A stretch of DNA of 64,000 nt from Planctomycetaceae bacterium (GTDB taxonomy: Bacteria; Planctomycetota; Phycisphaerae; Sedimentisphaerales; Anaerohalosphaeraceae). The first letter of the stretch is position 1; every line of letters starts with the position of its first letter. Shown here one piece after another: positions 9,045-38,887 of this stretch. The notes under the pieces are model-generated. The model was not told where the DNA came from, searched no databases, and saw only the letters and a program-made list of their open reading frames with translations. The DNA lies in assembly GCA_021372945.1 (NCBI GenBank), contig JAJFTK010000139.1, positions 53,970-117,969 on the forward strand. Reading direction: 5' to 3'. The translations under genes and the position numbers were made by a program.

Positions 9045-9047
9045 GGA

Positions 9048-10619: not shown

Positions 10620-10675
10620 ACTGTAAGATCCGAATTCCTAAATCCTACATCCTAAACGAAACTGGAATTTATAGA

Positions 10676-10984
10676 TTAAATTTGCATCCTCATGGTTTCC
10701 TTGTAGGCCTCAACCAGCTTGTTCCGCACGCCCACCAGCAGCTTGAAACTCATATCGGCCTTTGCCATTTCGGCCACGACCGAATTGACGTCCTGCTGTT
10801 TGCCGTTGAGCAGATCGACCACGGTCAGGTTGGCCTGGTTCTGCTGGTCATTGACCTTGTCAAACGACTGCTCGACGAGTTTGCCAAAATCGCCGGAGCC
10901 GCCGCTGGCGCCCGCCGGACGCAACGCATCGCTTTGTACCGAAGGCACGACATTGGGGGTGGATGGATTAAATTGGATGTTCAT
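10676..10984 (-). CDS. fliE: flagellar hook-basal body complex protein FliE
   Basis: 102 aa with C-terminal MAKADMSFKLLVGVRNKLVEAYKETMRMQI. Lies between flgC and fliF. Confidence 0.88.
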   Translation of the reverse strand: MNIQFNPSTPNVVPSVQSDALRPAGASGGSGDFGKLVEQSFDKVNDQQNQANLTVVDLLNGKQQDVNSVVAEMAKADMSFKLLVGVRNKLVEAYKETMRMQI

Positions 10985-10993
10985 GGGTCGGTC

Positions 10994-11401
10994 CTATTTT
11001 AATAGTTCGAGACTCGATTCGATCATGGTTTGATAACGCTTCAGGATGGCCGCGTTCGCCTGGTAGGCGCGGCTGGCGGCATTGAGCGTGATCATTTCCG
11101 TCGGCCAATCGACGTTCGGCATGGCCACATAACCGTTTGCGTCGGCGTCGGGGTGGCCGGGTTTGAGGATCCGCTGAAAGTCGCTGTTATCCTTGACGAT
11201 GTCCTTGATCTCGACGCCGCCGCCGCCTTCGTCAACCGCTTCAAACCGCGCGATCAGCCGACGGTAAGGCCGGCCGTCGCCGTTATCCGTGGTCTGCACA
11301 TTGGCCATGTTGGAGCCGACGACCTGCATCTGCCGGTTGTAGGCTTTCAGGCCGGATACCGCAATATCGATTGTGCCGAACATATTTGTGTCAATGTTCA
11401 T
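10994..11401 (-). CDS. flgC: flagellar basal-body rod protein FlgC
   Basis: 135 aa with IAVSGLKAYNRQMQVVGSNMANVQT and C-terminal MITLNAASRAYQANAAILK. Confidence 0.92.
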   Translation of the reverse strand: MNIDTNMFGTIDIAVSGLKAYNRQMQVVGSNMANVQTTDNGDGRPYRRLIARFEAVDEGGGGVEIKDIVKDNSDFQRILKPGHPDADANGYVAMPNVDWPTEMITLNAASRAYQANAAILKRYQTMIESSLELLK

Positions 11402-11411
11402 GGTTTAGTCC

Positions 11412-11771
11412 TTAGGGCGTTCTCATCGCGTCATCCATCTGCGTGTATTTTTTCTTGAGGACCAGCATGTACGTGCGGTGGCGAATCGAATTCTTGACCA
11501 GCTCGCCGACTTCGCTGTCCAGATTGACATCGCTGCCGTACTCGTTAATGCTCGTATTCAGTGGTTGAAAGGTCTCCACCTCCACCTTTTCAAGATCGAA
11601 GCTGCCATCCTGGCCCATGGCCTTCTGAAGGGCCTGTTCAAACTTGATGTCGGAGCGGCGAAAACCCTCGGTATTGATGTTGGCTACGTTATTGGCGATC
11701 GTCTGCTGACGAAGGCCCTCGGCCCGCAACCCTGCTTCGAGCAAATTGATGACCGTCGAATCCTGAATCAT
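11412..11771 (-). CDS. flgB: flagellar basal-body rod protein FlgB
   Basis: RQQTIANNVANINTEGFRR rod motif. Start placed at MIQDSTV (11771), preceded by GGAGA at 6-nt spacing. The ORF-track start at 11846 lies upstream of the sigma-54 promoter at 11823-11838. Confidence 0.88.
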   Translation of the reverse strand: MIQDSTVINLLEAGLRAEGLRQQTIANNVANINTEGFRRSDIKFEQALQKAMGQDGSFDLEKVEVETFQPLNTSINEYGSDVNLDSEVGELVKNSIRHRTYMLVLKKKYTQMDDAMRTP

Positions 11772-11822
11772 CCATGTTCTCCAAACGTCCGGCGTACGCA
11801 AAATGTCACACAGCCTAAAAAG

Positions 11823-11838
11823 AGCAACTCTTGTGCCA
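11823..11838 (-). promoter_or_regulatory. sigma-54 (-24/-12) promoter of the flgB operon
   Basis: Minus strand reads TGGCAC-aagag-TTGCT, an exact match to TGGCAC-N5-TTGCW. About 50 nt upstream of the flgB ATG. Confidence 0.75.
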
Positions 11839-12119
11839 GCCGTCAAAAATGCGGTTTACGCGTCGTTTTGACGGGTTTTGGCCATAGTGGGACCTTTGCG
11901 GACGACCAAACGTCTGGTTTTTAGACACAGGGTCAAAACCCGGATCATCGCCGCCTGGGCCGCGCTGCCGCGCCTGCAAAAAGGACTTTTTTTCCGGGTT
12001 CAAACGGTAATCCGTGCCTTCATTTTGCCGCGAAAACTTAGTGGAAGAATCCATAAAAGAACGTAAGGTATGAACACTAAACGCTTTATGGTCATTAACT
12101 TAATTCGGGACACGCTGCT

Positions 12120-12135
12120 TGGTATGTTTTTTGCA
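12120..12135 (+). promoter_or_regulatory. sigma-54-like promoter facing the fliK-like gene
   Basis: Plus strand reads TGGTAT-gtttt-TTGCA, with GG and GC at canonical spacing. Divergent from the flgB promoter, 282 nt away. Confidence 0.5.
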
Positions 12136-12184
12136 CACATTGAACGGATAAACTATGCAAGCGGTTCAATACGGGAGCAGAGCA

Positions 12185-13684
12185 ATGACCTGCAATATTC
12201 AATTAGGGATGTTGATCCCAAGACAGGCCCATCCGCAGGCCCAGGGACGTGAGAGAACTCAGAACGGCTGGGAAGGCGAAACTGAAGCCATAAACACGCC
12301 CGGCCAGGAGCCATTTTCAAAAGATGGCGCCCCCTTGGACACAAAGAAGAACACGTTTGACAAGGTGCTCAGCGAAAAACTCGAAAAGCCGATTGCCGCG
12401 GCAGCTGAACAGGTCGGGCAAGAAATGCCGCATGCTGTCATCGATCCGTTGATGTTTGCCCAAAACGCTCAAGCCGCTGCGGCTTGCGAGTTTTCGAATG
12501 CAGCGTTTGAAACCGGTCCGATGCTTTTGCAGGATCATGTGCCCGACGGCATGCAGATGGGTACCGCCGCAATGATCCCGGCCGCAGCAGAGCCGGTCTT
12601 GCCCACGAGAATTGCCGAGAAGGCGGCGGCTGACGTAATTCCCGAACAAGCAAAAGACACCGGTTTTTCGGCAGTGCTGAAGCAAAGGCCCGAGGCGGCC
12701 GACGGTCTGGAACCCGCTGCGGAGCAAGAGTCTGCGCCTTCGAACCTAAAGCTGGAGGTGCTGGCGGCAACCGAACCAAAGCCCGCGAAGACGGGCAGGC
12801 CGGAGCAGCTTGAACCCTCCACCCGGCAGGCCAAGCCGCCGCTGGAAAATATGCCTGCCCTGCCGGAAAAGGCGATTGCTAATACCGCCGATAAGCCTGC
12901 GGCGACTAATGCGCCGGTGTTTATCGCGCAGACCCAACCGGTATCGCAGAAAGTTCCTCAGATCGAACCGGCGGCCGCTGCGAATCCGTCGCTCAAAAAG
13001 ACGCTACAAAACAAGATGACGGCATCAACGGCCGGCAAGGATACATCCAAAACAGCCGCCGCTTTTGAATCGGCCGGCGGGCATACTGCCGCATTTGCAG
13101 TGCAGCACAAGCCGGAACTGAATATCACCGAAGCAAAGCTCACGGGCATTGAGAATGCTCAAGCCGTGCGGCCGCGGGCCGCCGATGCGATCGCCGCTTC
13201 AAGGCCCGCCGAGCAAATCGCCCAAAGCCTGCCGCCCGGGCCGGTGCAGGCCGGTCAGCAGATCCGGCTGACGTTGACGCCGCCGGAACTGGGAACCGTG
13301 CGGATCACGTTCCGCGAGCAGGACAGCGAGATCGTCGGTCTCGTAGAGGTGCAAAAATCGCAGACGCGGCAGGAGCTTGAGGAATCATTGCCGCAGCTTG
13401 TCTCGGCGATGCAAAATCAGGGCGTTGAGGTTCGCCGGATCGAGGTCGTGCAGTGGAACACGCCCCAACAGAACACGCGCGAGAATCTGTCCGAAAATTA
13501 CAGTCCCTCGGCGGAGCGCGAATTCATGCAGCAGGACAATGGTAATAGCAGCGAACGTTCTTCCAGGAACAGCGAATCGGGCCAGTCGGACGGATCGGGT
13601 GAGAATACCGGCAGCCAATTTGCAGCGAGCACGCCGCAGCAAAAGGAATGGTTCTCGGACAAGAGCCTGAATCTCTACATTTGA
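12185..13684 (+). CDS. fliK: flagellar hook-length control protein FliK-like
   Basis: P/A/Q-rich central region and a C-terminal Flg_hook-type domain (GQQIRLTLTPPELGTVRITFREQDSEIVGLVEVQKSQTRQELEESLPQLVSAM). Start uncertain: ATG 12185 has GGGAG at 7-nt spacing and lies downstream of the putative sigma-54 start site; the ORF track uses 12155. Confidence 0.75.
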   Translation: MTCNIQLGMLIPRQAHPQAQGRERTQNGWEGETEAINTPGQEPFSKDGAPLDTKKNTFDKVLSEKLEKPIAAAAEQVGQEMPHAVIDPLMFAQNAQAAAACEFSNAAFETGPMLLQDHVPDGMQMGTAAMIPAAAEPVLPTRIAEKAAADVIPEQAKDTGFSAVLKQRPEAADGLEPAAEQESAPSNLKLEVLAATEPKPAKTGRPEQLEPSTRQAKPPLENMPALPEKAIANTADKPAATNAPVFIAQTQPVSQKVPQIEPAAAANPSLKKTLQNKMTASTAGKDTSKTAAAFESAGGHTAAFAVQHKPELNITEAKLTGIENAQAVRPRAADAIAASRPAEQIAQSLPPGPVQAGQQIRLTLTPPELGTVRITFREQDSEIVGLVEVQKSQTRQELEESLPQLVSAMQNQGVEVRRIEVVQWNTPQQNTRENLSENYSPSAEREFMQQDNGNSSERSSRNSESGQSDGSGENTGSQFAASTPQQKEWFSDKSLNLYI

Positions 13685-19772: not shown

Positions 19773-19954
19773 CCCCATAATACAAATGTGGAGCCGACCT
19801 GTCCGGCAATTTATCCTATAACGATGAGCTTTTCTTTGGAAAATCTATAGAAAACCGGCAAAGAAGTACAAGTTGCGCCTTTGTATAATAGATATGAGGT
19901 TTGAGACTGCCCCTATAAGGAGACAGATTAAGTCGCAATTCAATCACAGGACCC

Positions 19955-20491
19955 ATGGATAGACAGAATCAGGACAATCCAAATGCAAAATTCGTGGAAC
20001 TGTTGACACCTAATTACTACAAGATCCACAGCTTCATTCTTGCGCTGGTCCCCAACAAGACCGACGCAGAGGATATCCTGCAGTCATCGATCAGCTACAT
20101 GTGGGAACATATCGCCGATTTCAAGCAGGGAACCAATTTCCTTTCCTGGGCCTTCACCATCTCGAAGTACCAGGTTTTATCCTATCGCAAAAAGCAGCAG
20201 CGCTCGATCGTGTTCTTTAGTGAAGAAGCTACCCAACTGATCGCCTCTGAGAATCAGGCACTTTCCCGGGAGATCGACGGCCGGCTTGAGGCCCTGGACG
20301 AGTGCATGCAGAAACTTGAGCATCGGGACCTGGCATTCCTGAAGAAGCGTTTCGAGATGAGAACCTCGGCGGCCGATCTGGCGGTTGAATTCAAAACGTC
20401 CGTAAACGTGGTTTATAAACGCCTTGCCCAGATCAAGAATATGTTGTTAAGCTGCATTCACAAAGCGATGGCTGCTGGAGAGGCATCATGA
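19955..20491 (+). CDS. ECF-type RNA polymerase sigma factor
   Basis: 178 aa. Region 2 (DAEDILQSSISYMWEH...FLSWAFTISKYQVLSYRK) and region 4 HTH (SAADLAVEFKTSVNVVYKRLAQIK). ATGA overlap with the next gene. Confidence 0.9.
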   Translation: MDRQNQDNPNAKFVELLTPNYYKIHSFILALVPNKTDAEDILQSSISYMWEHIADFKQGTNFLSWAFTISKYQVLSYRKKQQRSIVFFSEEATQLIASENQALSREIDGRLEALDECMQKLEHRDLAFLKKRFEMRTSAADLAVEFKTSVNVVYKRLAQIKNMLLSCIHKAMAAGEAS

Positions 20492-22140
20492 ATTCATCGG
20501 CAAGAGATTTCAGGCGAGTCAATGAATTGATCGAGTTCTCGCTTGAGGGCTCGATCGCTCCGGAGCAATACCAGCAATTGAACGACTGGATCGTCAGCGA
20601 TCCGGCCATTCGGCGCCACTACTGCGAATATATCCAGTTGACCGTGGGCATCGAACGGCTCAGCGCCAACATCTCGGCGGCGGATCTGCCGCAGTATGAC
20701 TCCATCTGTGACCTCGAATTATGGGATCAGCTTGCCCATCAGGAGAAAACAGCGCCGGAACTGGCGTCTCCGCCGCAACCGCACGAGCTGATCCGAAAGG
20801 TCGTCTATCCCCCGCGAGAGAAACGCAAGATCAGTAAATTCAATGTTTTCATCCTTTTGAATGCGGCGGCCGTTCTCATGATTGTTCTGTTTGCCCGGTT
20901 CGTGACGCCGCAAGCGGGCTTGCCGGTGGCCACCCTGACCGAAAGCGTCAATGCCAAATGGGCCGACGCCGAACACATGGTCAAGGGGCAGCGTTTCGTC
21001 ACCGGCAGTACAAATCTCCTGCTGCGCGAAGGCTGTGCCGAACTGCTGTTTGACAACAACGCCCGGGTCACCATCGAAGCTCCCGCCGAATTTCAGATCC
21101 TTACAGACGATCAGATCAAATTGAATTATGGCCGCGTTTATGCCGTCGTACCCGATCAGGCTTACGGTTTCACGATTTCCACGTCCAACGGCAAGATCAT
21201 TGACCTGGGCACGGAATTCGGGGTGCAGCGCAATCCCTACGGAGACACGGAACTGCATGTCCTCAAGGGCCGCACAAATCTCATCGCCAATACGCAAGGA
21301 CGCAAAATCAATATTTCGGTGACCGAAGGCGCTGCTCGAAAGTTGGTGGGCTCAACCGGCGAAGTGAGAAGCATCGTTTTGCAGAATGACCTTTTTGTGC
21401 GCAAGATCGATTCTGAAAGCAGCCTGATGTGGCAGGGCCAGATGTACTTCAGCCTGGCCGACGCGGTTGGCGGCGGCAGCGGCTTTGGGAGCGGCGGCTC
21501 GGCGCGGATGATCGATCCGGCTTCCGGCAGGAGCACCAAAGAGGACGCCGGAACACGTGCGTCCACCAATGACTATCGCCCGATCGCCTCCAATCTGTGC
21601 ATTGACGGCGTCTTTGTCCCCAATGGCAGCACATCGCAGATCGTGAGCTCGCAAGGACATCTGTTCGAGCAATGCCCTGTGACCAACGGGTTATGCTGCG
21701 AAGAAATTAAAGCGGTGACCACGATGGATTTCGATGTGGTTCCCGACCCCAATATCGCGAACGTGCAGATGCGATGTTTGTTCCTGCACGCGAATATGGG
21801 CATCACGTTTGACCTGGACGCCGTGCGCAAAGTGCTGCCGGACGTAAGCCCTGTGCGGTTCCAGTCCAAGTGCGGGATTCGAAAGTGGGCGCTGCGGCCG
21901 ACGGCGAGCAACGCGGATTTCTGGGTTCTGGTCGATGGCAAAGTGCGCTTTAAACGAGAACACGTCAAGATCGGCCAGATTCATTCAATCGACATCGAAC
22001 TATCGCAGAACGATCGTTTTCTGACGCTTGTGGAAACCGACGGCGGCGACCCGCAAAGCCGAACGTTGAATGGCGTGGTGCTATCCGCCAATGACAGCGA
22101 CTGGGGCTATTTCGCCGATCCGCTCCTGGTGTTGAAATGA
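20488..22140 (+). CDS. FecR-family anti-sigma factor with a C-terminal NPCBM/NEW2-like module
   Basis: 550 aa: cytoplasmic anti-sigma N-domain, one TM (FNVFILLNAAAVLMIVLFARFV), and a FecR domain (...IIDLGTEFGVQRNPYGDTELHVLKGR). The C-terminal ~170 aa (FLHANMGITFDLDAV...FWVLVDGKV...RFLTLVETDGGD...DWGYFADP) fits the NPCBM pattern as I recall it. Confidence 0.8.
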   Translation: MNSSARDFRRVNELIEFSLEGSIAPEQYQQLNDWIVSDPAIRRHYCEYIQLTVGIERLSANISAADLPQYDSICDLELWDQLAHQEKTAPELASPPQPHELIRKVVYPPREKRKISKFNVFILLNAAAVLMIVLFARFVTPQAGLPVATLTESVNAKWADAEHMVKGQRFVTGSTNLLLREGCAELLFDNNARVTIEAPAEFQILTDDQIKLNYGRVYAVVPDQAYGFTISTSNGKIIDLGTEFGVQRNPYGDTELHVLKGRTNLIANTQGRKINISVTEGAARKLVGSTGEVRSIVLQNDLFVRKIDSESSLMWQGQMYFSLADAVGGGSGFGSGGSARMIDPASGRSTKEDAGTRASTNDYRPIASNLCIDGVFVPNGSTSQIVSSQGHLFEQCPVTNGLCCEEIKAVTTMDFDVVPDPNIANVQMRCLFLHANMGITFDLDAVRKVLPDVSPVRFQSKCGIRKWALRPTASNADFWVLVDGKVRFKREHVKIGQIHSIDIELSQNDRFLTLVETDGGDPQSRTLNGVVLSANDSDWGYFADPLLVLK

Positions 22141-22204
22141 TCGCAGTTTGTTACAGATCAGGAGGCGTAATCCTGATACTAAATTTTATTCTAAAGGAGA
22201 TAAG

Positions 22205-24277
22205 ATGATGAGAACTGTAATGTATTTATTATGTGTGGCATCGGTAGCGGCCATGTCCTCGGCGGCCGTTACGTACGTGGACGCCGTTTTCGCAACCGGC
22301 CACGGCGGCACGCCTAACACCTTTCTTGCAGACGGCGGCGCTGCGGTACCCACCAGCACGGGAGACACGGTGGATGGCCTGTGGCGCTATCGCACAGGAT
22401 TTGGCATTGCTCCGGGTACTGCCATCCAGCCGACCGGCACTATAACGCTGACCTCGTCCTGCACAGTCTATGAAGGCACCGGCAACAGCAGTCCGTCGGA
22501 CAATGTTCCGCGGGTCGTGACTACCGCAAGCGTGCCGTCGGGCGCCTATGATGTTTATGTCTATTTCTGGATCGACCAGAGCGGCAGCCCCTGGCGGATT
22601 CGGGCAGGCCTGGTCAACACCGTCGAGCCGCTGGAGTTGTTCACCGGCAGCAACACGTTTACGGCTGACAGTGAGCCTATCGCCTGGGTGGCTTCAGACA
22701 GCGGCGGCCCCCGAAGACTCATGCGGGCCTACCTCGGCCAAGCGAGCGGCACGTCGATCAGCGTTTATGTGGAAGATGCTCCGGCAACAAACGGCAACGA
22801 ACGTACCTGGTATGACGGCATCGGTTATACAAAGGTCTATAATGTGCCGAATTCGCCGTCCGTTACGCCGGTCAATATCGACGGAAGCGTCGGTACGCTG
22901 CTCAACGATACCGAGGCCGAAGTTACATTGCAGTTCAATGCAGGCGCCGACCCCAACAATGCCGTGAACCCCAAAATCAAGAAGCATTATGTTTATCTGT
23001 CGGCCGCAAATGACGCTAATTTGCCGGCCGCACCGACATTTACGATCGACCAGATCGGGACCGACCCGGCCATTTCGATCGGGCCGCTGACATTAAGCGC
23101 AAGCGCCACCTACTACTGGCAGGTTGAAGAAGGCATTACTGATCCAAACGGCGGAGTTTATCCAGCCGGCACTGCCGACAATTATTGGGGACTCGTCTGG
23201 TCCTTCAAAACCGCCAGCCCCGCCTGTACGATCAGTGCGGTCAATCCGCCGCTTGCCGCGGTTCCACAGGGAAGCGCCGCGGTTCTAACAGTCGCAGGTA
23301 CCAACATCACGAATTACCAATGGTACAAGATAGGCTCCCCGGATGTTATGCTGGCCAACGATGGCAAGTACTCCGGCGCAGCCACAGGCGCGCTTACGAT
23401 TACGGACGTTCAGCAATCGGATGAGGGGCTGTATTACTGCGTCGCGAGTAATAGCACAAGCCAGGCTTCCAACCGCGATACCGGGCCGGGTCATGTCATG
23501 ATCGCGCGTCTGGTGAACCACTACCCAATGGAAGTGATCAACAGCGGTGTGACGCCGGATGTTGTCGGCGGCGCCGATATGGTTCTGCATACCAATGGCA
23601 GAGCAATGCCGGCTTTGGCAGCGGGTGTGGTGGGAACCAGCGCTCTGAGCCTGGATACTGCGGCGGAACCACTGGGACAATATGGTCAACTTCCGGCCGG
23701 CGTGTGCGATTACCAGGACCTTACGATCAGCGCATGGGTTTACTGGAAAGGCGGCCTTGCCTTCCAGCGTCTTTTTGCCTTTGGCAATGATGATACGCAC
23801 TTTATAGCCTTTAGTCCGAATATTTTCGGTTCATCGGCCACGTTCACCATCATTAATACGAGCGAACAGAACGTGCAAACCTATAGTCAGTTATTGCCGA
23901 GTAATCAGTGGGTCCATGTGGCGGTCTCGCTCAACGGTGACGCGGGACGTTTGTATATCAATGGCGTCAGGGCGGCGGTAAACACCGGCATGACGCACGA
24001 CCCGATTGATTTCAGGCCTTCGCTCAACTATATCGGCAGGAGCCTGGTTGCCGAGCAAGCGTATTTCGACGGCATGATCGACGAACTGAAGATTTACAAC
24101 TATGCCATGACTAACACACAGGTGGCACAAGAATATATCGCCGTCAGGGGCGGATATGTATGCGATGCCGATGGCACCGATTCGTTGACCTACGATTTCA
24201 ACCGCGACTGCCGGGTTGATCTGGCCGACTTTGCTCGGATCGCGACGGATTGGCTCAACGACAACCGTATCTACTAA
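22205..24277 (+). CDS. secreted LamG (concanavalin-like) / Ig-domain protein with a dockerin-like C-terminal tag
   Basis: Start at MMRTVMYLL (AGGAG RBS), with a signal peptide. Ig I-set-like ITNYQWYK...SDEGLYYCVASN. LamG module (ISAWVYWKGG...FDGMIDELKIYNYAMT). C-terminal YDFNRDCRVDLADFARIATDWL. Confidence 0.85.
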   Translation: MMRTVMYLLCVASVAAMSSAAVTYVDAVFATGHGGTPNTFLADGGAAVPTSTGDTVDGLWRYRTGFGIAPGTAIQPTGTITLTSSCTVYEGTGNSSPSDNVPRVVTTASVPSGAYDVYVYFWIDQSGSPWRIRAGLVNTVEPLELFTGSNTFTADSEPIAWVASDSGGPRRLMRAYLGQASGTSISVYVEDAPATNGNERTWYDGIGYTKVYNVPNSPSVTPVNIDGSVGTLLNDTEAEVTLQFNAGADPNNAVNPKIKKHYVYLSAANDANLPAAPTFTIDQIGTDPAISIGPLTLSASATYYWQVEEGITDPNGGVYPAGTADNYWGLVWSFKTASPACTISAVNPPLAAVPQGSAAVLTVAGTNITNYQWYKIGSPDVMLANDGKYSGAATGALTITDVQQSDEGLYYCVASNSTSQASNRDTGPGHVMIARLVNHYPMEVINSGVTPDVVGGADMVLHTNGRAMPALAAGVVGTSALSLDTAAEPLGQYGQLPAGVCDYQDLTISAWVYWKGGLAFQRLFAFGNDDTHFIAFSPNIFGSSATFTIINTSEQNVQTYSQLLPSNQWVHVAVSLNGDAGRLYINGVRAAVNTGMTHDPIDFRPSLNYIGRSLVAEQAYFDGMIDELKIYNYAMTNTQVAQEYIAVRGGYVCDADGTDSLTYDFNRDCRVDLADFARIATDWLNDNRIY

Positions 24278-24366: not shown

Positions 24367-24385
24367 CTTTTTGGGGAAAGCAGTA

Positions 24386-27300
24386 ATGAGCAAACTCGCT
24401 TGTCTATTCGCTGTAACTCTGCTGGTCGTCATGTCGCCTGGCGCGGCACATTCGCTGAACGTTGATTTTAACGGCAACAGCTATGGTTCCGTGATCGAGC
24501 AAACTCAATCGGGCTTTCAGGTATACAACGCCCGCAACGAAGTGCCCGGCGACTTTGTCGCAAGGCAGTATAGCGCATTTGGCACAACCGTTACGATTAC
24601 TCCATCTTGGGCCGCCGGAGCGACAGCCGCCGCGATGCAGTCGTGGAGTCGCGGCAATAGCTACGGCTATTCAACCGCGCCTGGGGACATGCTCGATCTC
24701 GTGATCGACTGGATCGGAACCGACCAGCGCGAAGTCGGCGACCCCATGACGCTAACCATCAGCGGCCTGCCCGCCGGCGTCTATGAATGGCGCTCCTATC
24801 ACCACGATACCCAAAACCAGACCGGCCATTTCAGTGTAACCGTCAATGACGCCGCCGGTTCGGTCACAATGACCGGCCTGCAGGTTTCCAGCTCGCAATC
24901 ACTGTCGGACGTTACATTGGCGGATGTGACAAAATTTGATACCACGATTACCTCCGACGGCGTCAACCCTGTCACGTTAGTTTTTGAAGCCACCGATGCG
25001 CCCAACTACAACACCATGTTCGTGATGAATGGTTTTGAGATCGCCAATGGCATTTCATATGCGTGGCGATCCGGCGCGGCCTTGCGGCGTCCCGTCTGTG
25101 CCGCACAGCCCATGTGGCTGATTCATATCGATACCTGGAACTACGCCGACCCGCAAAAGATCATCGCACTGATCCCGCCGGACATTCGCCCCTATGTCGT
25201 GATGAATATTGGGCTCTCGATCAGTCATGATGAGACGACAAGCCGGTTCCAGGTTGCCGAGTATGGCAGCGAGATCGCCAAATCGTGGCTCAGGGCCTGC
25301 GCCGAGAACCGCATGTGGGCCATTGTCCAGCCCTCCAGCGGCGGATTCAGTCAATTCTCGGATTTCGATCTGTCCATTTATGAAGAGTTTTACCGCGACT
25401 ATCCCAACATGATCGGCTTTAATTACTGTGAGCAATTCTGGGGGTACGACAGCACCACGGATCCGCTTTCGGCCAAATGGGCGGACCGTATCGCTCATTT
25501 CGCCAACCTGTTGAAACTCAGTGATCGTTACGGCGGATATCTCGTGGTCTCCTGGTGCGGAAATCAGTGGTCCCCCAACATCAACCCGATTGCCATGCTC
25601 AAACGCAATCCCGCGTTTGCGGCTGCGTGCCGGCAATATACCGATAACTATATCCTCTGCGAGAAATACACCCAGCAGTCCTATATTTCTGACATGGAGA
25701 GTCTCTGCCTCGGCACCTGGCTGTCGGGCTATAGCGGCCAATACGGTATCCGCTACGATGATACCGGGTGGACGGATGCTAGCGGGGAACATGCCAACTT
25801 TACGATGGCAACCTACGGCGCGCCGTTTCTTGAACATGTCATGCTGACCGGAATGACCGTGATCGACGCCCCTGAATTGATTTGGACGCAGTGTTTCAGA
25901 GAAATCAGCGCCGGCTCGACATCCAATGGCTATACCATGCGCAGGTGGGAAACGTTCCCGCAGTTTGACAACGTCAGCGTCGATCTTTTCCGCAAGATCC
26001 TCGATGGCACGGTCCGCATCCCAACCCGCAGGGAGGTCATCGACCGCACAAAGATCGCCATCATCAACAACATCAATTCAGGCAGTATTGACGACATCTA
26101 CAGTTCGCCTGAGACGCTATTTGAGGGTCTCTATCGCATGGACGGCGACGGCAATCTGAGATACAATAAAACGTTCTTCAAAAAAACGGGCCGCTATCCG
26201 ACGATACCGACCGTCTATCAATTGGACGATGCCGATGCTCAATCGTTCCAGGTGCAGGTGAACAAATCCGCCTACTCGACCCGTTGGCCGAGCACATCTG
26301 CTAAAGTGACTGAACTGAATAATTTGTTCCCGGAAGAATACACCGGCGACATTTACGCGAGCCGCCACGAGAACGCCTGGGTCACCTACAACCCGTACAA
26401 GACCGGCCAGACGGCAAGCGGTTCTATTCCATTCAAATACAATACCTGTGACCGCATGGAGCTGACGTATTCGCAATATACCGCCGGAGTGATCAAAGAA
26501 TATGCCGACCGCGTGACATTCTATCTGAGCAATTACGACAACGTTATCGATACCAGCCTCAAGACCGACACGATCATCATTCACGGCTGTACCTCTGAGC
26601 CGACGTACTCTTATGCAGACAGAGCAAGCCATCAGGCCAGCATTGTGACCGGCAATTGGGATGGCGGCGTTTTTACATTGACCGTTCGGCACAACGGCCC
26701 GCTCGATATCACCGTCAATTGTGGTGGAACGGCGACGGGACGCTTGACCGATTATACCACGGCCGTCCTTGCCGCCCCTGCCGCACCTTTGACCTATACG
26801 GGTCCGCTTCAGTACGAAGCCGAGTGCTTCGATTACAGAAACATCGCAGGTATCGTCAAAGGCGGGTACCCTGAACCCGTCCGCAATTACACCGGCCAGG
26901 GCTATCTGCAATTTGGAACCAATTCAGCCGCCGCGGTCCGAGATACCGTTACGGTTCCCAAGACCGGCACCTATCGTCTCGAAACCAGGTACGCCGTCAT
27001 CGGCACAGATATTACAGCCATCGACCTGTACGTAAACGGAACGCGCGTTTGCGCGCCTGTCTTTTCACAGACCCCGACGCTTAGCGACTGGGCCGTCAAC
27101 CAGGAAAACATAATATTGACCGCGGGCGCCAATACCATTGAATTCAGAGCAATCGCCGCGGCGCCAAGTTCTATCTATTTTGACAATATCGTTGCAGTTC
27201 CCTCAGTGCATGGCGAAGGCATGATCATTCAGGAAGGCCAAAATGGCTTTGCCGGCCTGGATGGCACGATAGAAAATACGTATGCCGGCTATACGGGAAG

Positions 27301-27775
27301 CGGCTACGCCAATCCGGACGAATCCGTTGGCTCCGGCGTAAACTGGCGCGCCGATCTTGACTCTTCGGCAGTTAAAGCGTTCACTTTCAGATACGCCTGT
27401 GCCGACAACAGGACCGCGGACCTGATTGTCAATGGCGAAATTGTCGCAGCTCAAATCCAATTCCCCTCAACCGGTTCCTGGTCGGCCTGGGATTTCGTCA
27501 CGGTGTACGCGAGTACAGACTCCGGCGTTTCCGGCGTGCGGCTCCAATCAAGCTTGGAGGCGGGTCTGCCCAATATTGATTACATCGAGCTGACCGGCGT
27601 CCTTCTTTACGGTGACATGAATCGCAACGGTATCGTAAACAGCGATGACCTGCCCGAATTCGCCGCCTCGTGGCTGGAAGAAAATGGCGAGCTGGACTTG
27701 AACGCGGACGGCCTGATTAACATGCACGAATTCACGCAGTTCGCGGCCAACTGGCTGGCTGCTTCAACGCACTGA
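24386..27775 (+). CDS. large secreted glycoside hydrolase-like protein (TIM-barrel core, possibly GH98-like) with two CBM6/35-like modules and a two-repeat dockerin
   Basis: Signal peptide MSKLACLFAVTLLVVMSPGAAHS. Core WLIHIDTWNYADP...MIGFNYCEQFWGYD. Two CBM-like modules (YEAECFDY...GQGYLQFG...NTIEF and GYTGSGYANP...IDYIELTG). Dockerin GDMNRNGIVNSDD...DLNADGLINMHEF. The GH family assignment is tentative. Confidence 0.75.
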   Translation: MSKLACLFAVTLLVVMSPGAAHSLNVDFNGNSYGSVIEQTQSGFQVYNARNEVPGDFVARQYSAFGTTVTITPSWAAGATAAAMQSWSRGNSYGYSTAPGDMLDLVIDWIGTDQREVGDPMTLTISGLPAGVYEWRSYHHDTQNQTGHFSVTVNDAAGSVTMTGLQVSSSQSLSDVTLADVTKFDTTITSDGVNPVTLVFEATDAPNYNTMFVMNGFEIANGISYAWRSGAALRRPVCAAQPMWLIHIDTWNYADPQKIIALIPPDIRPYVVMNIGLSISHDETTSRFQVAEYGSEIAKSWLRACAENRMWAIVQPSSGGFSQFSDFDLSIYEEFYRDYPNMIGFNYCEQFWGYDSTTDPLSAKWADRIAHFANLLKLSDRYGGYLVVSWCGNQWSPNINPIAMLKRNPAFAAACRQYTDNYILCEKYTQQSYISDMESLCLGTWLSGYSGQYGIRYDDTGWTDASGEHANFTMATYGAPFLEHVMLTGMTVIDAPELIWTQCFREISAGSTSNGYTMRRWETFPQFDNVSVDLFRKILDGTVRIPTRREVIDRTKIAIINNINSGSIDDIYSSPETLFEGLYRMDGDGNLRYNKTFFKKTGRYPTIPTVYQLDDADAQSFQVQVNKSAYSTRWPSTSAKVTELNNLFPEEYTGDIYASRHENAWVTYNPYKTGQTASGSIPFKYNTCDRMELTYSQYTAGVIKEYADRVTFYLSNYDNVIDTSLKTDTIIIHGCTSEPTYSYADRASHQASIVTGNWDGGVFTLTVRHNGPLDITVNCGGTATGRLTDYTTAVLAAPAAPLTYTGPLQYEAECFDYRNIAGIVKGGYPEPVRNYTGQGYLQFGTNSAAAVRDTVTVPKTGTYRLETRYAVIGTDITAIDLYVNGTRVCAPVFSQTPTLSDWAVNQENIILTAGANTIEFRAIAAAPSSIYFDNIVAVPSVHGEGMIIQEGQNGFAGLDGTIENTYAGYTGSGYANPDESVGSGVNWRADLDSSAVKAFTFRYACADNRTADLIVNGEIVAAQIQFPSTGSWSAWDFVTVYASTDSGVSGVRLQSSLEAGLPNIDYIELTGVLLYGDMNRNGIVNSDDLPEFAASWLEENGELDLNADGLINMHEFTQFAANWLAASTH

Positions 27776-27794: not shown

Positions 27795-29228
27795 TTAATC
27801 AGAGATCCAGCGAACGCGGATCGCATCGGCACAGGCGGTGGATCCATCGCCGGCGGTATCGATCTCGACATAGCCGGGCTGTCCGCCTGTCATGGGATAC
27901 GTTCCCAACACGTTCCATTGCCCGCCGTCCGCCTGTTGGTTGATGCTCAGATTTGCCGTGCCGGCGCCGTGCCTCACCTGCACAGGGATGGAAGTGCCGC
28001 GTGATGAATACTGGGTCCACCAGAGGGACACCTCGTAGCGGCCGGTTTGCGCCGGGGTGAATGTCCAGCGATAGGATGCCGCCGCGCGGGCCCAGAGGGA
28101 ATTGCTGCCGTAAGAGCCGGAGCCGCCGGAAATGCCCCATGTGCCGGTGTAGGAGGTTCCGCTGCCGCCGTTATCCATGACACTTTCCGGTTTGGTGCTG
28201 TCAACTTTGACAAATCGAACCGCGTCAGCGCAACTGCTGGTCGGATAGGAACCCAAGGCGGTCAGTTTCACCGTCCCGCTTGCACTAAAATAATAGGTTC
28301 CGAGCAAATTCCACTTGCCGCCGTTGGTTTGCTGGTTGATCGTCAGCGATGCTGTTCCGGCGGCATTGCTGATCGTCACCGGTACCGCCGTGCCGCGCGA
28401 CGAATACGCGGTCCACCACATGTACACTTGATAGGTTCCGGCCGACGGCGGAGTGAAGCGCCAGCTATAAGTTGCGCCATTACGGGCCCAGAGGCTATTT
28501 GAACCATAGCAGCCGGAGCCGCTGGAAACACCCCAGGTGCCGGTCGAAGAAGTCCCGGACGCGCCGTTGTCGATGGTTGTTTGCGTCGGAGAGGTGTCTG
28601 TGCCTGTGCCTGTGCCTGTGTCTGTGCCTGTATCGGTTCCGGTGTCAGTCCCTGTGTCTGTGCTGCCGGCTGTCCAGTTATCGCGGCGATAAAAACGGCA
28701 TCCCCAGTCAACCATATCCTGTTTGCGGCGCGTGCGTTCGACGACGCCGATGGAAGCCGACAGCGCTTCACGTGTGACGATCGAAGAGCTGGTGAGTTCT
28801 TTAACCAGGCCGGTATGCCCGGTGCTCGGTCCGCCGTACTCAGCCCGCCATACCCAAATGTCCCACGGCTGCAGGTTTTGGACATTGTTGATCCGCACAA
28901 GATGCGGCACACCAGCGTAAAGTTTGGAAGTCGAGTAAGGGTAAGCTGCCGACTTATTTTCCGCCACGTAGCTGGGCAGCGCCAGACAGCGGCATACATA
29001 AGACGCGCAGTCCACCCCCTCGATACTCGAACTGTCCCAAGAATTATTATCGATCCACCCCTTATTGCCGCCATACACATACCGTTCGTTCAATCCATGG
29101 TACGAGTAGGTACTGCAATTGCTGCGTGTCCAACCGGCATCATAGGCCGCGCCGGCGGATGCGGCAAAACATAACGAGACGAGAATCAGATATTTTGCAC
29201 TCTTTTGCTTAGATGAAAAACACGTCAT
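27795..29228 (-). CDS. secreted NlpC/P60-type cysteine peptidase with a TD/TG linker and two golvesin-C-like modules
   Basis: GVDCASYVCRCL (Cys nucleophile context) and STGHTGLV (His). (TD/TG)n linker. Two repeats of GTWG.SSGSG.YGSNSLWAR....Y.W.FTP...G.Y.V..WWT.YSSRGT..PV. Confidence 0.75.
   Translation of the reverse strand: MTCFSSKQKSAKYLILVSLCFAASAGAAYDAGWTRSNCSTYSYHGLNERYVYGGNKGWIDNNSWDSSSIEGVDCASYVCRCLALPSYVAENKSAAYPYSTSKLYAGVPHLVRINNVQNLQPWDIWVWRAEYGGPSTGHTGLVKELTSSSIVTREALSASIGVVERTRRKQDMVDWGCRFYRRDNWTAGSTDTGTDTGTDTGTDTGTGTGTDTSPTQTTIDNGASGTSSTGTWGVSSGSGCYGSNSLWARNGATYSWRFTPPSAGTYQVYMWWTAYSSRGTAVPVTISNAAGTASLTINQQTNGGKWNLLGTYYFSASGTVKLTALGSYPTSSCADAVRFVKVDSTKPESVMDNGGSGTSYTGTWGISGGSGSYGSNSLWARAAASYRWTFTPAQTGRYEVSLWWTQYSSRGTSIPVQVRHGAGTANLSINQQADGGQWNVLGTYPMTGGQPGYVEIDTAGDGSTACADAIRVRWISD
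28593..28662. repeat. imperfect hexanucleotide microsatellite (GTGCCT/GTGTCT) encoding the TD/TG linker
   Basis: The sequence ggtgtctgtgcctgtgcctgtgcctgtgtctgtgcctgtatcggttccggtgtcagtccctgtgtctgtgct is read on the minus strand as STDTGTDTGTDTGTDTGTGTGTDT. Confidence 0.85.
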
Positions 29229-30879: not shown

Positions 30880-31434
30880 CTAGCCTTTTAGTGCATCGTT
30901 CACTTCTTTGATGTCAAACGCCTCAGGATCAAATTCGCCGCCGAGCCATTCAAGCCTGTCCTCATGCTCCTCATGATCAGGATCATCGAGGATTTCCAGT
31001 AATTCCTCGTATCCCAAGGCGCCGCCGCAATCTTCCGGCGGACAGGCTCGTCGGCCATCCAGACATACAGGGTATTTCACGCCCTTCTGCGGCTCCTTAA
31101 TCTCCACCAGTTCCACCACATGCTCCCAGTTGTCACCATAATCATACGTATAGATAAATCGTTCCCGCGGCCGGCGCACCAGGTCGGACAGCCTGCCCTT
31201 GCGCTCATCCATTGTGTCGTCCATATCGTCATCCGGATCGAGCACGCTGTACTCATCGTCGCCGGCAATGAACGAATGCAGATGCGTATTCGTCCAGCCC
31301 ATTACATCCTGAATCACATCATGCAGTTTATCCAGCCGGATCGCGGCATCCACTTCGAACTTCCGCCAAACCCGCGGCTCAACATCCGCCAGCCAGATTT
31401 CCAATTGATAAATCGTTCCTGCGTTCTTAGCCAT
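30880..31434 (-). CDS. pRiA4b ORF-3 / MM3350-like domain protein
   Basis: 184 aa. IYQLEIWLADVEPRVWRKFEV, HLHSF, YTYDYGDNWEHVVEL and CPPEDCGG are the hallmark motifs of the PRiA4_ORF3 family. Confidence 0.88.
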   Translation of the reverse strand: MAKNAGTIYQLEIWLADVEPRVWRKFEVDAAIRLDKLHDVIQDVMGWTNTHLHSFIAGDDEYSVLDPDDDMDDTMDERKGRLSDLVRRPRERFIYTYDYGDNWEHVVELVEIKEPQKGVKYPVCLDGRRACPPEDCGGALGYEELLEILDDPDHEEHEDRLEWLGGEFDPEAFDIKEVNDALKG

Positions 31435-33416: not shown

Positions 33417-33497
33417 GCTTCTCCTTTCAGAATGGGCCAGAAGCTTTTTTCGAGAATCCATTCTTCTGTTCGCATTTCTGCCCTTTACTTATTGACT

Positions 33498-38886: not shown

Positions 38887-38887
38887 A

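What the first reader, a model, noticed from the sequence alone, without database searches (positions are those of the whole stretch)
20488..22140. FecR-type anti-sigma factor carrying an NPCBM/NEW2-like carbohydrate-binding module as its extracytoplasmic end, with a paralog at the right window edge
The architecture is an anti-sigma N-domain, one TM, a FecR domain and a ~170-aa C-terminal module. The module motifs are HAN.GITFDLDA, F.VLVDGKV, RFLTLVETDGGD and DW.YFADP, which fit the NPCBM pattern known from glycosidases. A second copy of the same C-terminal module ends the partial anti-sigma at 63263-64000 (HANRGLTFDLDAI, FYVLLDGKV, RFLSLVTTDGGD, DWCIFAEP). Classical FecR proteins receive their signal from a TonB-dependent transducer, and none is present here. 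A lectin-like module on the anti-sigma itself suggests direct glycan sensing that drives the adjacent exoprotein and glycosidase genes.
Basis: partly seen in the sequence, partly recalled or inferred. Interest (0 to 1): 0.65.

Follow-up and report, generated by a model that had tools for sequence, protein, structure and literature searches.

The report
Anti-sigma factor tipped with a lectin-like module
This gene encodes a membrane-spanning switch (a FecR-type anti-sigma factor) whose outer end is a sugar-binding-type fold instead of the usual receptor-docking domain. It belongs to a very large, unstudied family that heads sugar-degrading gene clusters in one group of anaerobic planctomycetes.

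Summary
ORF 20488..22140 (550 aa) overlaps an ECF sigma gene by 4 nt. It has a helical N-terminal domain, one N-in/C-out membrane helix, a FecR domain and a C-terminal CBM51/NPCBM-like beta-sandwich. The Pfam NPCBM score is 23.8 bits here (cut-off 23.9) and 36.2 bits in the window-edge paralog, and the 13 best Foldseek matches are all CBM51.

The partial ORF 63263..64000 is a true paralog (36% identity over about 240 aa). Its 71% ortholog is a full-length anti-sigma factor with a sigma gene upstream.

The protein is not a one-off. The C-terminal module finds about 1,500 clusters at 50% identity, nearly all with this architecture. At least 585 genomic copies exist, almost all in Sedimentisphaerales/Anaerohalosphaeraceae, with several per genome. 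In 79 of 80 loci a sigma gene lies directly upstream. Downstream lie LamG/Ig, PEP-CTERM and pseudopilin-like proteins and varied glycosidases. No TonB-dependent transducer was seen.

The Gly-Thr self-cleavage dipeptide of E. coli FecR aligns with invariant G241-T242.

Direct glycan sensing in the periplasm is the best reading but is untested. It resembles the CBM-bearing RsgI anti-sigma factors of clostridia. I class it as a new variant of a known kind, of moderate interest.

The parts
19850..19889 (+). Candidate sigma-specific (autoregulated) promoter block upstream of the sigma gene: GAAAACCGGCAAAGAAGTACAAGTTGCGCCTTTGTATAAT
   Evidence: The block is conserved upstream of the orthologous sigma genes in L001, L002, L081, L082 and L084. 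The core TTGCGCC occurs upstream of only 2 of 78 paralogous sigma genes. Its function is inferred.
19955..20491 (+). ECF sigma factor, 178 aa
   Evidence: Pfam Sigma70_r2 E 1.2e-9. NCBIfam TIGR02989 (Rhodopirellula/Verrucomicrobium ECF family) 121.8 bits against a cut-off of 124.55, and TIGR02937 sigma70-ECF 53.8 bits.
20488..22140 (+). FecR-type anti-sigma factor with a CBM51-like C-terminal module, 550 aa
20512..20751 (+). Cytoplasmic helical anti-sigma domain, residues 9-88
   Evidence: AlphaFold2 predicts helices 9-20, 25-37, 39-59 and 76-88 with pLDDT about 90. There are weak matches to the LIMLP_03685 anti-sigma family (E 2e-4) and to the RsiW anti-sigma domain (E 0.36). This is the most divergent region between paralogs of one genome, at 20-23% identity.
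20836..20904 (+). Single transmembrane helix, residues 117-139, N-in/C-out
   Evidence: Kyte-Doolittle maximum 2.49 at residues 118-136. K/R count is 6 on the N side and 0 on the C side. AlphaFold2 predicts a helix at 117-138.
20923..21387 (+). Periplasmic FecR beta-domain, residues 146-300
   Evidence: Pfam FecR. Foldseek matches to the 4m0n anti-sigma factor (rmsd 2.9 over 133 columns) and to the PupR domain 6ovk (rmsd 2.7 over 131 columns). BLASTP to E. coli FecR gives E 3e-5.
21208..21213 (+). Gly241-Thr242, equivalent of the FecR/FoxR self-cleavage site
   Evidence: The motif LGTEF aligns residue for residue with E. coli FecR L180-G181-T182-E183-F184. It is invariant in 113 homologs and present in at least 90% of 81 paralogs. 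FecR cleavage at G181/T182 is reported in PMC12036975. Cleavage of this protein was not tested.
21388..21597 (+). Family-specific glycine-rich connector, residues 301-370 (W315, LAD, GGxGxGxG)
   Evidence: It is conserved in the family. It has no Pfam hit and is not covered by the CBM51 structural matches, whose query-normalised TM-score is only about 0.40.
21598..22137 (+). CBM51/NPCBM-like beta-sandwich, residues 371-550
   Evidence: Pfam NPCBM 23.8 bits. The family profile hits the ZmpB CBM51 structure 7js4 at E 3.3e-4. The 13 best Foldseek PDB matches are all CBM51, with probability 1.00, target-normalised TM-score 0.62-0.67 for the single-module CBM51 entries, and rmsd 2.5-4.1 A over 129-152 columns for the compact alignments.
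22148..24277 (+). Secreted LamG/Ig-domain protein, 709 aa, 8 nt downstream of the anti-sigma gene
   Evidence: Pfam Laminin_G_3 E 7.4e-26 and Ig_3. A LamG protein lies downstream on the same strand in 62 of 80 related loci.
24371..27775 (+). GH98 glycosidase with CBM35/CBM6 and a dockerin-like tail, 1134 aa
   Evidence: Pfam Glyco_hydro_98M 232.7 bits, Glyco_hydro_98C, CBM_35 and CBM_6.
63263..64000 (-). C-terminal 245 codons of a paralogous anti-sigma factor, cut by the window edge
   Evidence: Pfam NPCBM 36.2 bits. It is 36% identical to residues 314-550 of the first copy. It is 71% identical to the full-length 560-aa anti-sigma factor of L002, which has a sigma gene upstream.
62501..63214 (-). 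PEP-CTERM surface protein, first gene after the edge anti-sigma gene
   Evidence: Pfam PEP-CTERM. PEP-CTERM proteins are first-downstream in 12 of 70 related loci.
57987..62341 (-). Two LamG/Ig exoprotein genes (60125..62341 and 57987..60161)
   Evidence: Pfam Laminin_G_3 E 1e-25 and 1.2e-20.
54133..58023 (-). GH127 beta-L-arabinofuranosidase fused to LamG, 1296 aa
   Evidence: Pfam GH127 catalytic domain 339.5 bits. A 71% ortholog lies downstream of the orthologous anti-sigma gene in L002.

Best explanation
Genes 19955..22140 encode an ECF sigma factor and its membrane-bound FecR-type anti-sigma factor.

Proposed domain roles:
- The cytoplasmic helical domain holds the sigma factor.
- The FecR beta-domain in the periplasm is the conserved transducer. 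By analogy with E. coli FecR it probably self-cleaves at G241-T242, leaving the C-terminal fragment non-covalently attached.
- The usual C-terminal subdomain, which docks onto a TonB-dependent transducer, is replaced by a glycine-rich connector and a CBM51-like beta-sandwich.

Proposed mechanism, all inferred:
1. An oligo- or polysaccharide reaches the periplasm and binds the CBM51-like module.
2. Binding destabilises or releases the C-terminal fragment.
3. The membrane stub becomes open to site-1 and then site-2 proteolysis.
4. The freed sigma factor transcribes its own operon: sigma, anti-sigma, the LamG/Ig exoprotein and GH98.

The paralog at the window edge would do the same for the PEP-CTERM, LamG/Ig and GH127 operon. 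The family would then be the TonB-independent, locus-specific glycan sensor of Sedimentisphaerales.

What is shown: domain identities, topology, operon layout, family size and gene neighbourhood. What is inferred: ligand binding, self-cleavage and the proteolytic cascade.
For: - Architecture: FecR and NPCBM profiles, a confident AlphaFold2 model with pLDDT 86, and Foldseek matches to FecR-type periplasmic domains and CBM51 modules.
- Topology: N-in/C-out.
- Coupling to the sigma gene: a 4-nt ATGA overlap, and a sigma gene directly upstream in 79 of 80 related loci.
- Regulon content in relatives: LamG/Ig, PEP-CTERM and pseudopilin-like proteins plus GH43, GH127, GH95, GH97, GH5, GH3, GH2, GH66, GH106 and RG-lyase. 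No TonB receptor family is in the lists.
- The 60% ortholog heads an operon of LamG/Ig, GH43+SASA, an MFS sugar transporter, GH43 and an esterase. I read this as a hemicellulose theme that would fit GH98+CBM35/6; that link rests on my own knowledge of these families, not on a test here.
- Divergence between paralogs of one genome: anti-sigma domain 20-23% identity, CBM-like module 33-40%, FecR domain 39-53%. This fits variable output and input modules around a conserved transducer. Conserved scaffold motifs alternate with highly variable loops at 351-360, 404-429, 462-474, 491-500 and 521-535.
- The E. coli FecR self-cleavage dipeptide G181-T182 (PMC12036975) aligns with invariant G241-T242.
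- Precedent for the logic: the CBM-bearing, autoproteolytic RsgI anti-sigma factors that sense polysaccharide (PMC10328401, PMC10556640).
Against: - No ligand-binding or calcium-site residues of CBM51 could be mapped. I had no residue-level superposition, and the primary CBM51 paper was not retrievable.
- The NPCBM profile score of this copy is just under Pfam's cut-off.
- The N-terminal half of the canonical NPCBM profile (positions 1-43) is not matched, and the corresponding region 404-429 is the least confident part of the model.
- The module is periplasmic in a diderm cell, so it can only see glycans that cross the outer membrane.
- Enzyme content differs between close orthologs: GH98 here, GH43/esterase at 60% identity, and no GH98 catalytic domain in any of the 80 related loci. 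A fixed sensor-substrate pairing is therefore not demonstrated.
- LamG/Ig or PEP-CTERM proteins are almost always co-encoded and could be the real partners.
- There are no expression or biochemical data.
Confidence: 0.55

Rival explanations
1. The CBM51-like module is a protein-docking domain. It binds a co-encoded envelope or surface protein (LamG/Ig exoprotein, PEP-CTERM protein or pseudopilin-like protein). That partner is the true sensor and plays the role that the TonB-dependent transducer plays for classical FecR.
For: - LamG proteins lie downstream on the same strand in 62 of 80 loci.
- As first downstream gene, Laminin_G_3 is found in 33 of 70 loci, PEP-CTERM in 12 of 70 and N_methyl in 11 of 70.
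- Classical FecR C-termini bind a protein domain (the PupR-PupB complex 6ovk is among the structural hits).
- Many residues of the connector and module are nearly invariant across paralogs that head different enzyme sets: W315, G330, G332, D373, G374, P378, P397, N436, T440, R447, D483, G484 and D538. A shared partner surface would explain this.
Against: - No single partner family is universal. By tblastn, 13 loci with a full 8 kb of downstream sequence have no LamG protein.
- In my judgement the invariant residues coincide with the general NPCBM scaffold motifs (HA.G, VDG, TDGGD, DW), so they need no special partner.
- The fold's known function is glycan binding: the CBM51 structural matches include complexes with methyl-galactose and GlcNAc.
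Confidence: 0.25
2. The module binds the cell's own envelope glycan (peptidoglycan or a surface polysaccharide). The system then reports envelope state, or simply anchors the anti-sigma factor, rather than sensing a nutrient glycan.
For: - Bacillus subtilis RsgI senses the state of the cell wall rather than a nutrient (PMC9732909, listed).
- PEP-CTERM proteins in the operons point to an exopolysaccharide-linked surface.
Against: - There are several paralogs per genome, at least 5-6 among the top 80 loci alone. Each heads a different set of secreted glycosidases. That fits substrate-specific induction, not a single envelope signal.
- The module diverges between paralogs to 33-40% identity.
Confidence: 0.12
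3. The NPCBM resemblance is a generic beta-sandwich coincidence and the C-terminal region has no lectin-like character.
For: The Pfam score for this copy is 0.1 bit below the cut-off and covers only profile positions 44-124. Sequence identity to CBM51 structures is 13-23%.
Against: - The paralog scores 36.2 bits, and many homologs carry a precomputed PF08305 hit.
- The family profile hits a CBM51-containing PDB chain at E 3.3e-4.
- The 13 best Foldseek hits of the isolated module are all CBM51. Other CBM families rank only below them.
Confidence: 0.03

Closest known systems
[quoted passage not shown]
   Same: - An ECF sigma gene sits directly upstream and is translationally coupled.
- There is a cytoplasmic anti-sigma domain, one membrane helix and a periplasmic FecR beta-domain (Pfam PF04773; Foldseek hits to PupR 6ovk and to 4m0n).
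- The LGTEF motif holding the Gly-Thr self-cleavage site aligns exactly with E. coli FecR G181-T182.
   Different: - The C-terminal subdomain that docks onto the signalling domain of a TonB-dependent transducer is missing. The alignment to FecR stops at about residue 311. It is replaced by a glycine-rich connector plus a CBM51-like module.
- No TonB-dependent transducer gene is nearby.
- The sigma factor best matches TIGR02989, the Rhodopirellula/Verrucomicrobium ECF family; no FecI model was among the 25 NCBIfam matches listed.
- There is no twin-arginine motif before the membrane helix (KRK here; E. coli FecR uses R79-R80 per PMC12036975).
- The regulated genes are glycosidases and exoproteins, not iron uptake genes.
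RsgI anti-sigma-I factors of Clostridium (Acetivibrio) thermocellum
   Same: The logic is the same. A single-pass anti-sigma factor carries a carbohydrate-binding module at its extracytoplasmic end. Multiple paralogs per genome are each tied to a set of polysaccharide-degrading enzymes. Signalling involves autoproteolysis followed by RseP cleavage (PMC10328401, PMC10556640, PMC12203970).
   Different: - The proteins are unrelated: SigI/RsgI with a SEAL autoproteolytic domain, against an ECF sigma with a FecR domain.
- RsgI acts in a monoderm cell where the CBM is truly extracellular. Here the cell is diderm and the module is periplasmic.
- RsgI modules are CBM3, CBM42, PA14 or GH-like, not CBM51.
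CBM51 / NPCBM modules of glycosidases and O-glycopeptidases (C. perfringens GH95 and GH98, S. pneumoniae Sp3GH98, ZmpB)
   Same: The beta-sandwich fold is the same. Target-normalised TM-score is 0.62-0.67 and rmsd 2.5-4.1 A over 129-152 columns. The family motifs HA.G..(F/Y)DL, VDG, DGGD and DW are shared.
   Different: - Known CBM51 modules are appended to secreted enzymes and bind galactose, GlcNAc or blood-group glycans.
- Here the module ends a membrane regulator and carries an extra conserved connector of about 70 aa.
- It is poorly matched over the first third of the Pfam profile.
- Its ligand is unknown.
Bacteroides ECF-sigma/anti-sigma pairs of polysaccharide utilisation loci (original group ECF10, now ECF239/240)
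   Same: [quoted passage not shown] FecR-like regulation of ECF239/240 and the carbohydrate-binding neighbourhood of ECF10 are noted in PMC7826278.
   Different: From established knowledge, in Bacteroides the signal is relayed by a SusC-like TonB-dependent transducer. Here no such gene is present and a lectin-like fold sits on the anti-sigma factor itself.

Membership tests
FecR-type (cell-surface-signalling) anti-sigma factor | FecR periplasmic domain (Pfam PF04773) with a fold like PupR/FecR | tested here: met
   PF04773 scores 32 bits against a cut-off of 24. Foldseek to 6ovk_R gives rmsd 2.7 over 131 columns and to 4m0n rmsd 2.9 over 133. BLASTP to E. coli FecR gives E 3e-5.
FecR-type (cell-surface-signalling) anti-sigma factor | Single membrane helix with a cytoplasmic N-terminal anti-sigma domain | tested here: met
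   There is one hydrophobic helix at 117-139 with N-in charge bias and a helical bundle at residues 9-88. Profile support for the anti-sigma domain is only weak (E 2e-4, E 0.36).
FecR-type (cell-surface-signalling) anti-sigma factor | Co-transcribed with a cognate ECF sigma factor | tested here: met
   The genes overlap by 4 nt. A sigma gene is adjacent upstream in 79 of 80 related loci.
FecR-type (cell-surface-signalling) anti-sigma factor | Gly-Thr self-cleavage site in the FecR domain | tested here: inconclusive
   The sequence feature is present and invariant, and it aligns with FecR G181-T182. Cleavage itself cannot be tested with these tools.
FecR-type (cell-surface-signalling) anti-sigma factor | C-terminal subdomain that binds the signalling domain of a partner TonB-dependent transducer encoded nearby | tested here: not met
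   The alignment to FecR ends at about residue 311, and only about 131 of 213 PupR residues superpose. There is no TonB-dependent receptor in the window. None appears among the top families of 191 downstream genes of relatives.
CBM51 / NPCBM (Pfam PF08305) | Profile match at or above Pfam's gathering score | tested here: inconclusive
   This copy scores 23.8 bits against 23.9, so it narrowly misses. The edge paralog scores 36.2 bits and passes. Many full-length homologs carry a precomputed PF08305 hit.
CBM51 / NPCBM (Pfam PF08305) | CBM51 beta-sandwich fold | tested here: met
   The 13 best Foldseek PDB hits are all CBM51, with probability 1.00 and target-normalised TM-score up to 0.67. This rests on a predicted model with pLDDT 89.7.
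CBM51 / NPCBM (Pfam PF08305) | Conserved ligand-contact and metal-site residues of characterised CBM51 modules | not tested
   No residue-level structural alignment or model coordinates were available, and the primary CBM51 paper could not be retrieved.
CBM51 / NPCBM (Pfam PF08305) | Demonstrated carbohydrate binding | not testable with these tools
   This needs glycan arrays, ITC or affinity gels with the purified module.
RsgI-type polysaccharide-sensing anti-sigma factors | RsgI N-terminal domain pairing with SigI, and a SEAL autoproteolytic domain | tested here: not met
   No Pfam or NCBIfam match to an RsgI family was returned for the anti-sigma protein, and the upstream sigma factor matches ECF families such as TIGR02989. 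The likeness is functional only.

The most novel reading that the evidence does not exclude
This is a large family: more than 1,000 clusters at 50% identity, with several copies per genome. It would be the main way Sedimentisphaerales and Anaerohalosphaeraceae sense polysaccharides. In this reading, a TonB-independent ECF pathway has a self-cleaved FecR C-terminal fragment carrying its own CBM51-like lectin. A periplasmic glycan displaces that fragment, which starts regulated proteolysis and switches on one enzyme and exoprotein operon per sensor. It would be a diderm, ECF-based convergent counterpart of the clostridial RsgI/SigI system, and a regulator-based way to find polysaccharide utilisation loci in planctomycetes.
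Probability: 0.4. Interest if true: 0.7.

Novelty: new variant of a known kind. Interest (0 to 1): 0.55.

Why it matters
Phycisphaerae of the order Sedimentisphaerales are glycan degraders of anoxic sediments and digesters. They lack the SusC/SusD and TonB-transducer logic used to recognise and regulate polysaccharide loci in Bacteroidota.

If the sigma/anti-sigma pairs with a lectin-like tip are the substrate sensors, three things follow:
- They mark the glycan-degrading operons of these genomes.
- They give a set of natural glycan-specific binding modules and orthogonal sigma/promoter pairs.
- They show that the FecR transducer can be rewired from a TonB-driven protein partner to a direct ligand-binding domain.

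The conserved Gly-Thr site makes the new FecR 'cleavage cascade' model testable in a system without TonB.

Tried and rejected
- Literature. Ten full-text searches found no paper describing a FecR+NPCBM anti-sigma factor or the sigma/anti-sigma systems of Sedimentisphaerales. The library is incomplete, so this is absence of evidence only.
- CBM51 ligand-site residues. The primary paper could not be fetched by DOI or by a guessed PMC id. Two other papers gave no residue lists. No model coordinates were available in the scripting sandbox, so binding-site conservation was dropped.
- A second promoter copy. The conserved block upstream of the sigma gene does not recur in front of other genes in the window. 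A 12-mer search with up to 2 mismatches gave 7 hits against 6.65 expected. It therefore supports a single operon promoter at best.
- GH98 as a fixed partner of this sensor. None of the 80 related loci has a GH98 catalytic domain. The earlier 'GH98' tblastn hits came from the CBM/dockerin parts. The idea that the CBM51-like sensor is tied to GH98 because Pfam links NPCBM to GH98 is rejected.
- Most 'GH127' tblastn hits were due to the LamG domain. Only L002, L020, L062 and L078 hold close catalytic-domain orthologs at about 70% identity, and L029 holds a more distant one at 33%.
- The A1 profile against PDB sequences found no FecR-family chain at E up to 1. The FecR relationship to solved structures is visible only by fold and by direct BLASTP/hhalign to E. 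coli FecR (the hhalign probability is only 46%).
Full report

Yes. ORF 20488..22140 (+) encodes 550 aa. Its ATG overlaps the TGA of the preceding 178-aa gene 19955..20491 as ATGA.

That upstream gene is an ECF sigma factor. It matches Sigma70_r2 and TIGR02989, the 'Rhodopirellula/Verrucomicrobium' ECF family, at 121.8 bits against a cut-off of 124.55.

Pfam finds two domains in the 550-aa protein:
- FecR at residues 184-262: E 1.7e-7, 32 bits, cut-off 24.
- NPCBM/NEW2 at residues 433-523: E 4.7e-5, 23.8 bits, cut-off 23.9.

The open frame 63263..64000 (-) at the window edge carries the paralogous motifs. It scores 36.2 bits on NPCBM. It aligns with residues 314-550 of the first protein at 36% identity, E 3e-42.

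Its closest relative among the fetched loci is the full-length 560-aa anti-sigma factor of L002, at 71% identity. L002 has a sigma gene upstream and a 71%-identical GH127-LamG gene downstream. The edge ORF is therefore indeed the 3' part of a second anti-sigma gene.

The one correction concerns size. The unit shared by the paralogs is about 240 aa, not 170. A conserved glycine-rich connector (about 301-370: W315, LAD, GGxGxGxG) precedes the CBM51-like core (about 371-550).

**2. Anatomy**

A single hydrophobic helix at about residues 117-139 has six K/R on its N-terminal side and none on its C-terminal side. Residues 140-550 therefore face the periplasm.

AlphaFold2 with 113 homologs gives a confident model: mean pLDDT 86, with only residues 98-116 disordered. 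Its parts are:
- a helical bundle at 9-88;
- the membrane helix;
- a beta-domain at 146-300;
- a second beta-module at 306-550.

Foldseek of the full model against the PDB returns two classes of hit with probability 1.00. One class is CBM51 modules (ZmpB 7js4/7jrm, GH95 2vmg, GH98 2vng, Sp3GH98 2ygm). The other is FecR-type periplasmic domains (Parabacteroides anti-sigma 4m0n, rmsd 2.9 A over 133 columns; PupR 6ovk, rmsd 2.7 A over 131 columns).

A separate model of residues 300-550 has pLDDT 89.7 and pTM 0.89. Its 13 best PDB matches are all CBM51. Target-normalised TM-score is 0.62-0.67 for the single-module entries, and the compact alignments have rmsd 2.5-4.1 A over 129-152 columns. Other CBM families rank only below them. 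The query-normalised TM-score is about 0.40, which shows that the connector is not part of the known fold.

The family profile also hits a CBM51-containing PDB chain by sequence (7js4, E 3.3e-4).

**3. Relation to classical FecR**

BLASTP and hhalign against E. coli K-12 FecR (fetched) align residues 152-312 with FecR 105-240/246.

In that alignment 'IIDLGTEFGV' pairs with FecR 'LTALGTEFTV'. G241-T242 therefore corresponds exactly to G181-T182. That bond is where FecR self-cleaves, as does Pseudomonas FoxR by N-O acyl rearrangement (PMC12036975).

G241 and T242 are invariant in 113 homologs and present in at least 90% of 81 paralogs.

After about residue 311 there is no similarity to FecR. The C-terminal subdomain that contacts the TonB-dependent transducer is missing.

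No ORF of 600 aa or more in the window is a TonB-dependent receptor. They are LamG/Ig proteins, GH98, GH127, GmrSD, HypF, a histidine kinase, a DNA ligase and a C1 peptidase.

**4. The family**

- The whole protein finds at least 798 relatives in the 90%-clustered database, and this is a capped count. The 120 best listed are mostly full-length, about 550 aa, at 39-75% identity.
- The few that carry names are called 'FecR domain-containing protein' or 'NPCBM/NEW2 domain-containing protein'. They come from Anaerohalosphaeraceae, Sedimentisphaerales or Phycisphaerales MAGs, and many carry both Pfam domains.
- The C-terminal module alone, scored against 1.84 billion representatives, finds 1,499 clusters at E up to 1e-3 and 1,102 at E up to 1e-10. 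In almost all of the best 150 the module occupies residues about 300-560 of a 550-600-aa protein. The module is thus essentially confined to this architecture.
Several lie in each genome; for example, five of the top 80 are in chromosome OY775912.1.
- The window is therefore almost certainly from a member of Sedimentisphaerales (Phycisphaerae, Planctomycetota).

**5. Neighbourhood**

In 79 of 80 fetched loci an ECF sigma gene lies directly upstream on the same strand. In 62 of 80 a LamG protein follows on the same strand.

Pfam scans were run on 70 first, 58 second and 63 further downstream genes:

| Gene position | Laminin_G_3 | PEP-CTERM | N_methyl (pseudopilin-like) |
|---|---|---|---|
| First downstream (70) | 33 | 12 | 11 |
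| Second downstream (58) | 26 | 10 | 2 |
| Further downstream (63) | 16 | 10 | 5 |

The same scans show a wide range of carbohydrate-active enzymes: GH43, GH127, GH95, GH97, GH5, GH3, GH2, GH51-type, GH66, GH106, rhamnogalacturonan lyase, CBM6 and CBM35. No TonB-receptor family appears in the lists.

In the window the two copies head two operons:
- Cluster 1: sigma, anti-sigma, LamG/Ig (22148..24277), GH98+CBM35/6 (24371..27775).
- Cluster 2 (minus strand): anti-sigma, PEP-CTERM (62501..63214), two LamG/Ig genes, GH127-LamG (54133..58023).

The 60% ortholog of the first copy heads LamG/Ig, GH43+SASA, an MFS sugar transporter, GH43 and an esterase. The 75% ortholog is followed by a PEP-CTERM protein. 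No related locus contains a GH98 catalytic domain. The Pfam-level link between NPCBM and GH98 therefore does not explain the pairing seen here.

**6. How it most likely works**

*Shown:* this is a sigma/anti-sigma pair. The anti-sigma factor has a periplasmic FecR domain ending in a CBM51-like fold. It is repeated many times per genome at the head of operons for secreted glycosidases and exoproteins.

*Pattern between paralogs of one genome:*

| Region | Identity |
|---|---|
| Cytoplasmic anti-sigma domain | 20-23% |
| CBM-like module | 33-40% |
| FecR domain | 39-53% |

This is what one expects if output specificity (which sigma is held) and input specificity diverge around a conserved transducer. 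Within the module, conserved scaffold motifs alternate with very variable, indel-rich loops.

*Inferred:* a glycan that has entered the periplasm binds the module. This loosens the self-cleaved C-terminal fragment from the membrane stub, as ferric-citrate/TonB force does for FecR (PMC12036975). Site-1 and site-2 proteolysis then free the sigma factor, which transcribes its own operon.

*Possible promoter:* a conserved block at 19850-19889 (...GAAAAC-N18-TGCGCCTTTGTATAAT) lies upstream of the sigma gene. It is shared with the orthologous loci but absent from 76 of the 78 paralogous loci examined. It is a candidate sigma-specific promoter.

*Analogy:* the logic parallels the clostridial RsgI anti-sigma factors. 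These carry CBMs, autoproteolyse and are cut by RseP (PMC10328401, PMC10556640, PMC12203970). The proteins themselves are unrelated.

**7. Rivals**

- *Partner-protein docking (about 0.25).* The module could dock a co-encoded protein (LamG/Ig, PEP-CTERM or pseudopilin-like) that is the true sensor. The near-universal co-occurrence and the many invariant module residues fit this. However, no single partner family is universal, and in my judgement the invariant residues are the generic NPCBM scaffold motifs.
- *Own envelope glycan (about 0.12).* The module could bind the cell's own envelope glycan. This fits poorly with several divergent paralogs that each head a different enzyme set.
- *Generic beta-sandwich coincidence (about 0.03).* The resemblance to CBM51 could be a coincidence. 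The paralog's above-threshold profile score and the exclusively CBM51 top structural hits argue against this.

**8. Comparison with the known, and novelty**

The protein meets the FecR-family features that could be tested: domain, topology, sigma coupling and the Gly-Thr motif. It fails one, the transducer-binding C-terminus and a TonB-dependent partner.

It has the CBM51 fold. Its ligand site and actual binding are untested.

The ECF reclassification paper lists FecR-like anti-sigma factors only for the FecI-like clade and for ECF267, and does not mention a lectin-tipped form (PMC7826278). None of ten full-text searches found a description of this family.

Public annotation already labels members by their two domains, so the architecture is not hidden. 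As a system it is an undescribed variant of a known kind: a FecR-type anti-sigma factor rewired from a TonB-transducer partner to its own lectin-like module, greatly expanded in one order of planctomycetes.

Interest is moderate at 0.55. This is a coherent, testable candidate for how these glycan degraders sense substrates, but the key functional step is unproven.

Noticed in passing
window 30000-34000 (ORFs 30880..31434 - and 31620..33461 -): A low-GC stretch (0.49 against about 0.56 elsewhere) holds a PRiA4_ORF3-like protein and a GmrSD-type restriction endonuclease. It is probably an acquired defence islet.
   Followed up: no
window 54133..62341 (-): The two LamG/Ig exoproteins of the second cluster and the N-terminus of the GH127 protein share an N-terminal region, seen by eye over roughly the first 60-100 residues after the signal peptide ('ATV(S/T)F...NDATTY.A.DR.AQGQTF'). 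The first ~300 residues of these proteins have no Pfam hit. The LamG/Ig exoproteins end in a dockerin-like 'DLTG..C(R)VD...' tail, which the GH127 protein lacks.
   Followed up: partly
window 24371..27775 (+): The GH98 enzyme has no NPCBM/CBM51 of its own, although Pfam describes that module as typical of GH98 N-termini. It carries CBM35/CBM6 instead. Its first 235 residues have no family match.
   Followed up: partly
window 19850..19889 (+); L001, L002, L081, L082, L084 upstream of their sigma genes: A conserved block, GAAAA(A/C)-N-GC(A/G)AA(A/G)AA(G/A)T-N-AA(G/A)(T/C)TGCGCCTT(T/A)G, lies about 70-100 nt upstream of the sigma start. It is shared by sigma genes that are at least 65% identical and is absent from other paralogs. 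L002 is the ortholog of the window's second cluster, so the two window systems may share promoter specificity.
   Followed up: partly
window 6056..13684: Flagellar genes are present: the FliI ATPase, FliG, FliF and a FliK-like hook-length protein.
   Followed up: no
window 36521..41194 (-): Hydrogenase maturation genes are present: a HypE-like AIR-synthase-type protein, HypD and HypF.
   Followed up: no
window 27795..29228 (-) and 45381..47717 (-): A protein with two Golvesin_C domains converges on the GH98 gene. Elsewhere there is a secreted papain-family (C1) peptidase fused to a right-handed beta-helix with Chlamydia-PMP-type repeats.
   Followed up: no
Genome-contig loci L001, L010, L012, L015 and others: Several public MAGs that carry this family are labelled 'Pirellulales' or 'Balneolaceae'. 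Their loci are close relatives of Anaerohalosphaeraceae/Sedimentisphaerales loci, so these labels are probably taxonomic or binning errors.
   Followed up: no
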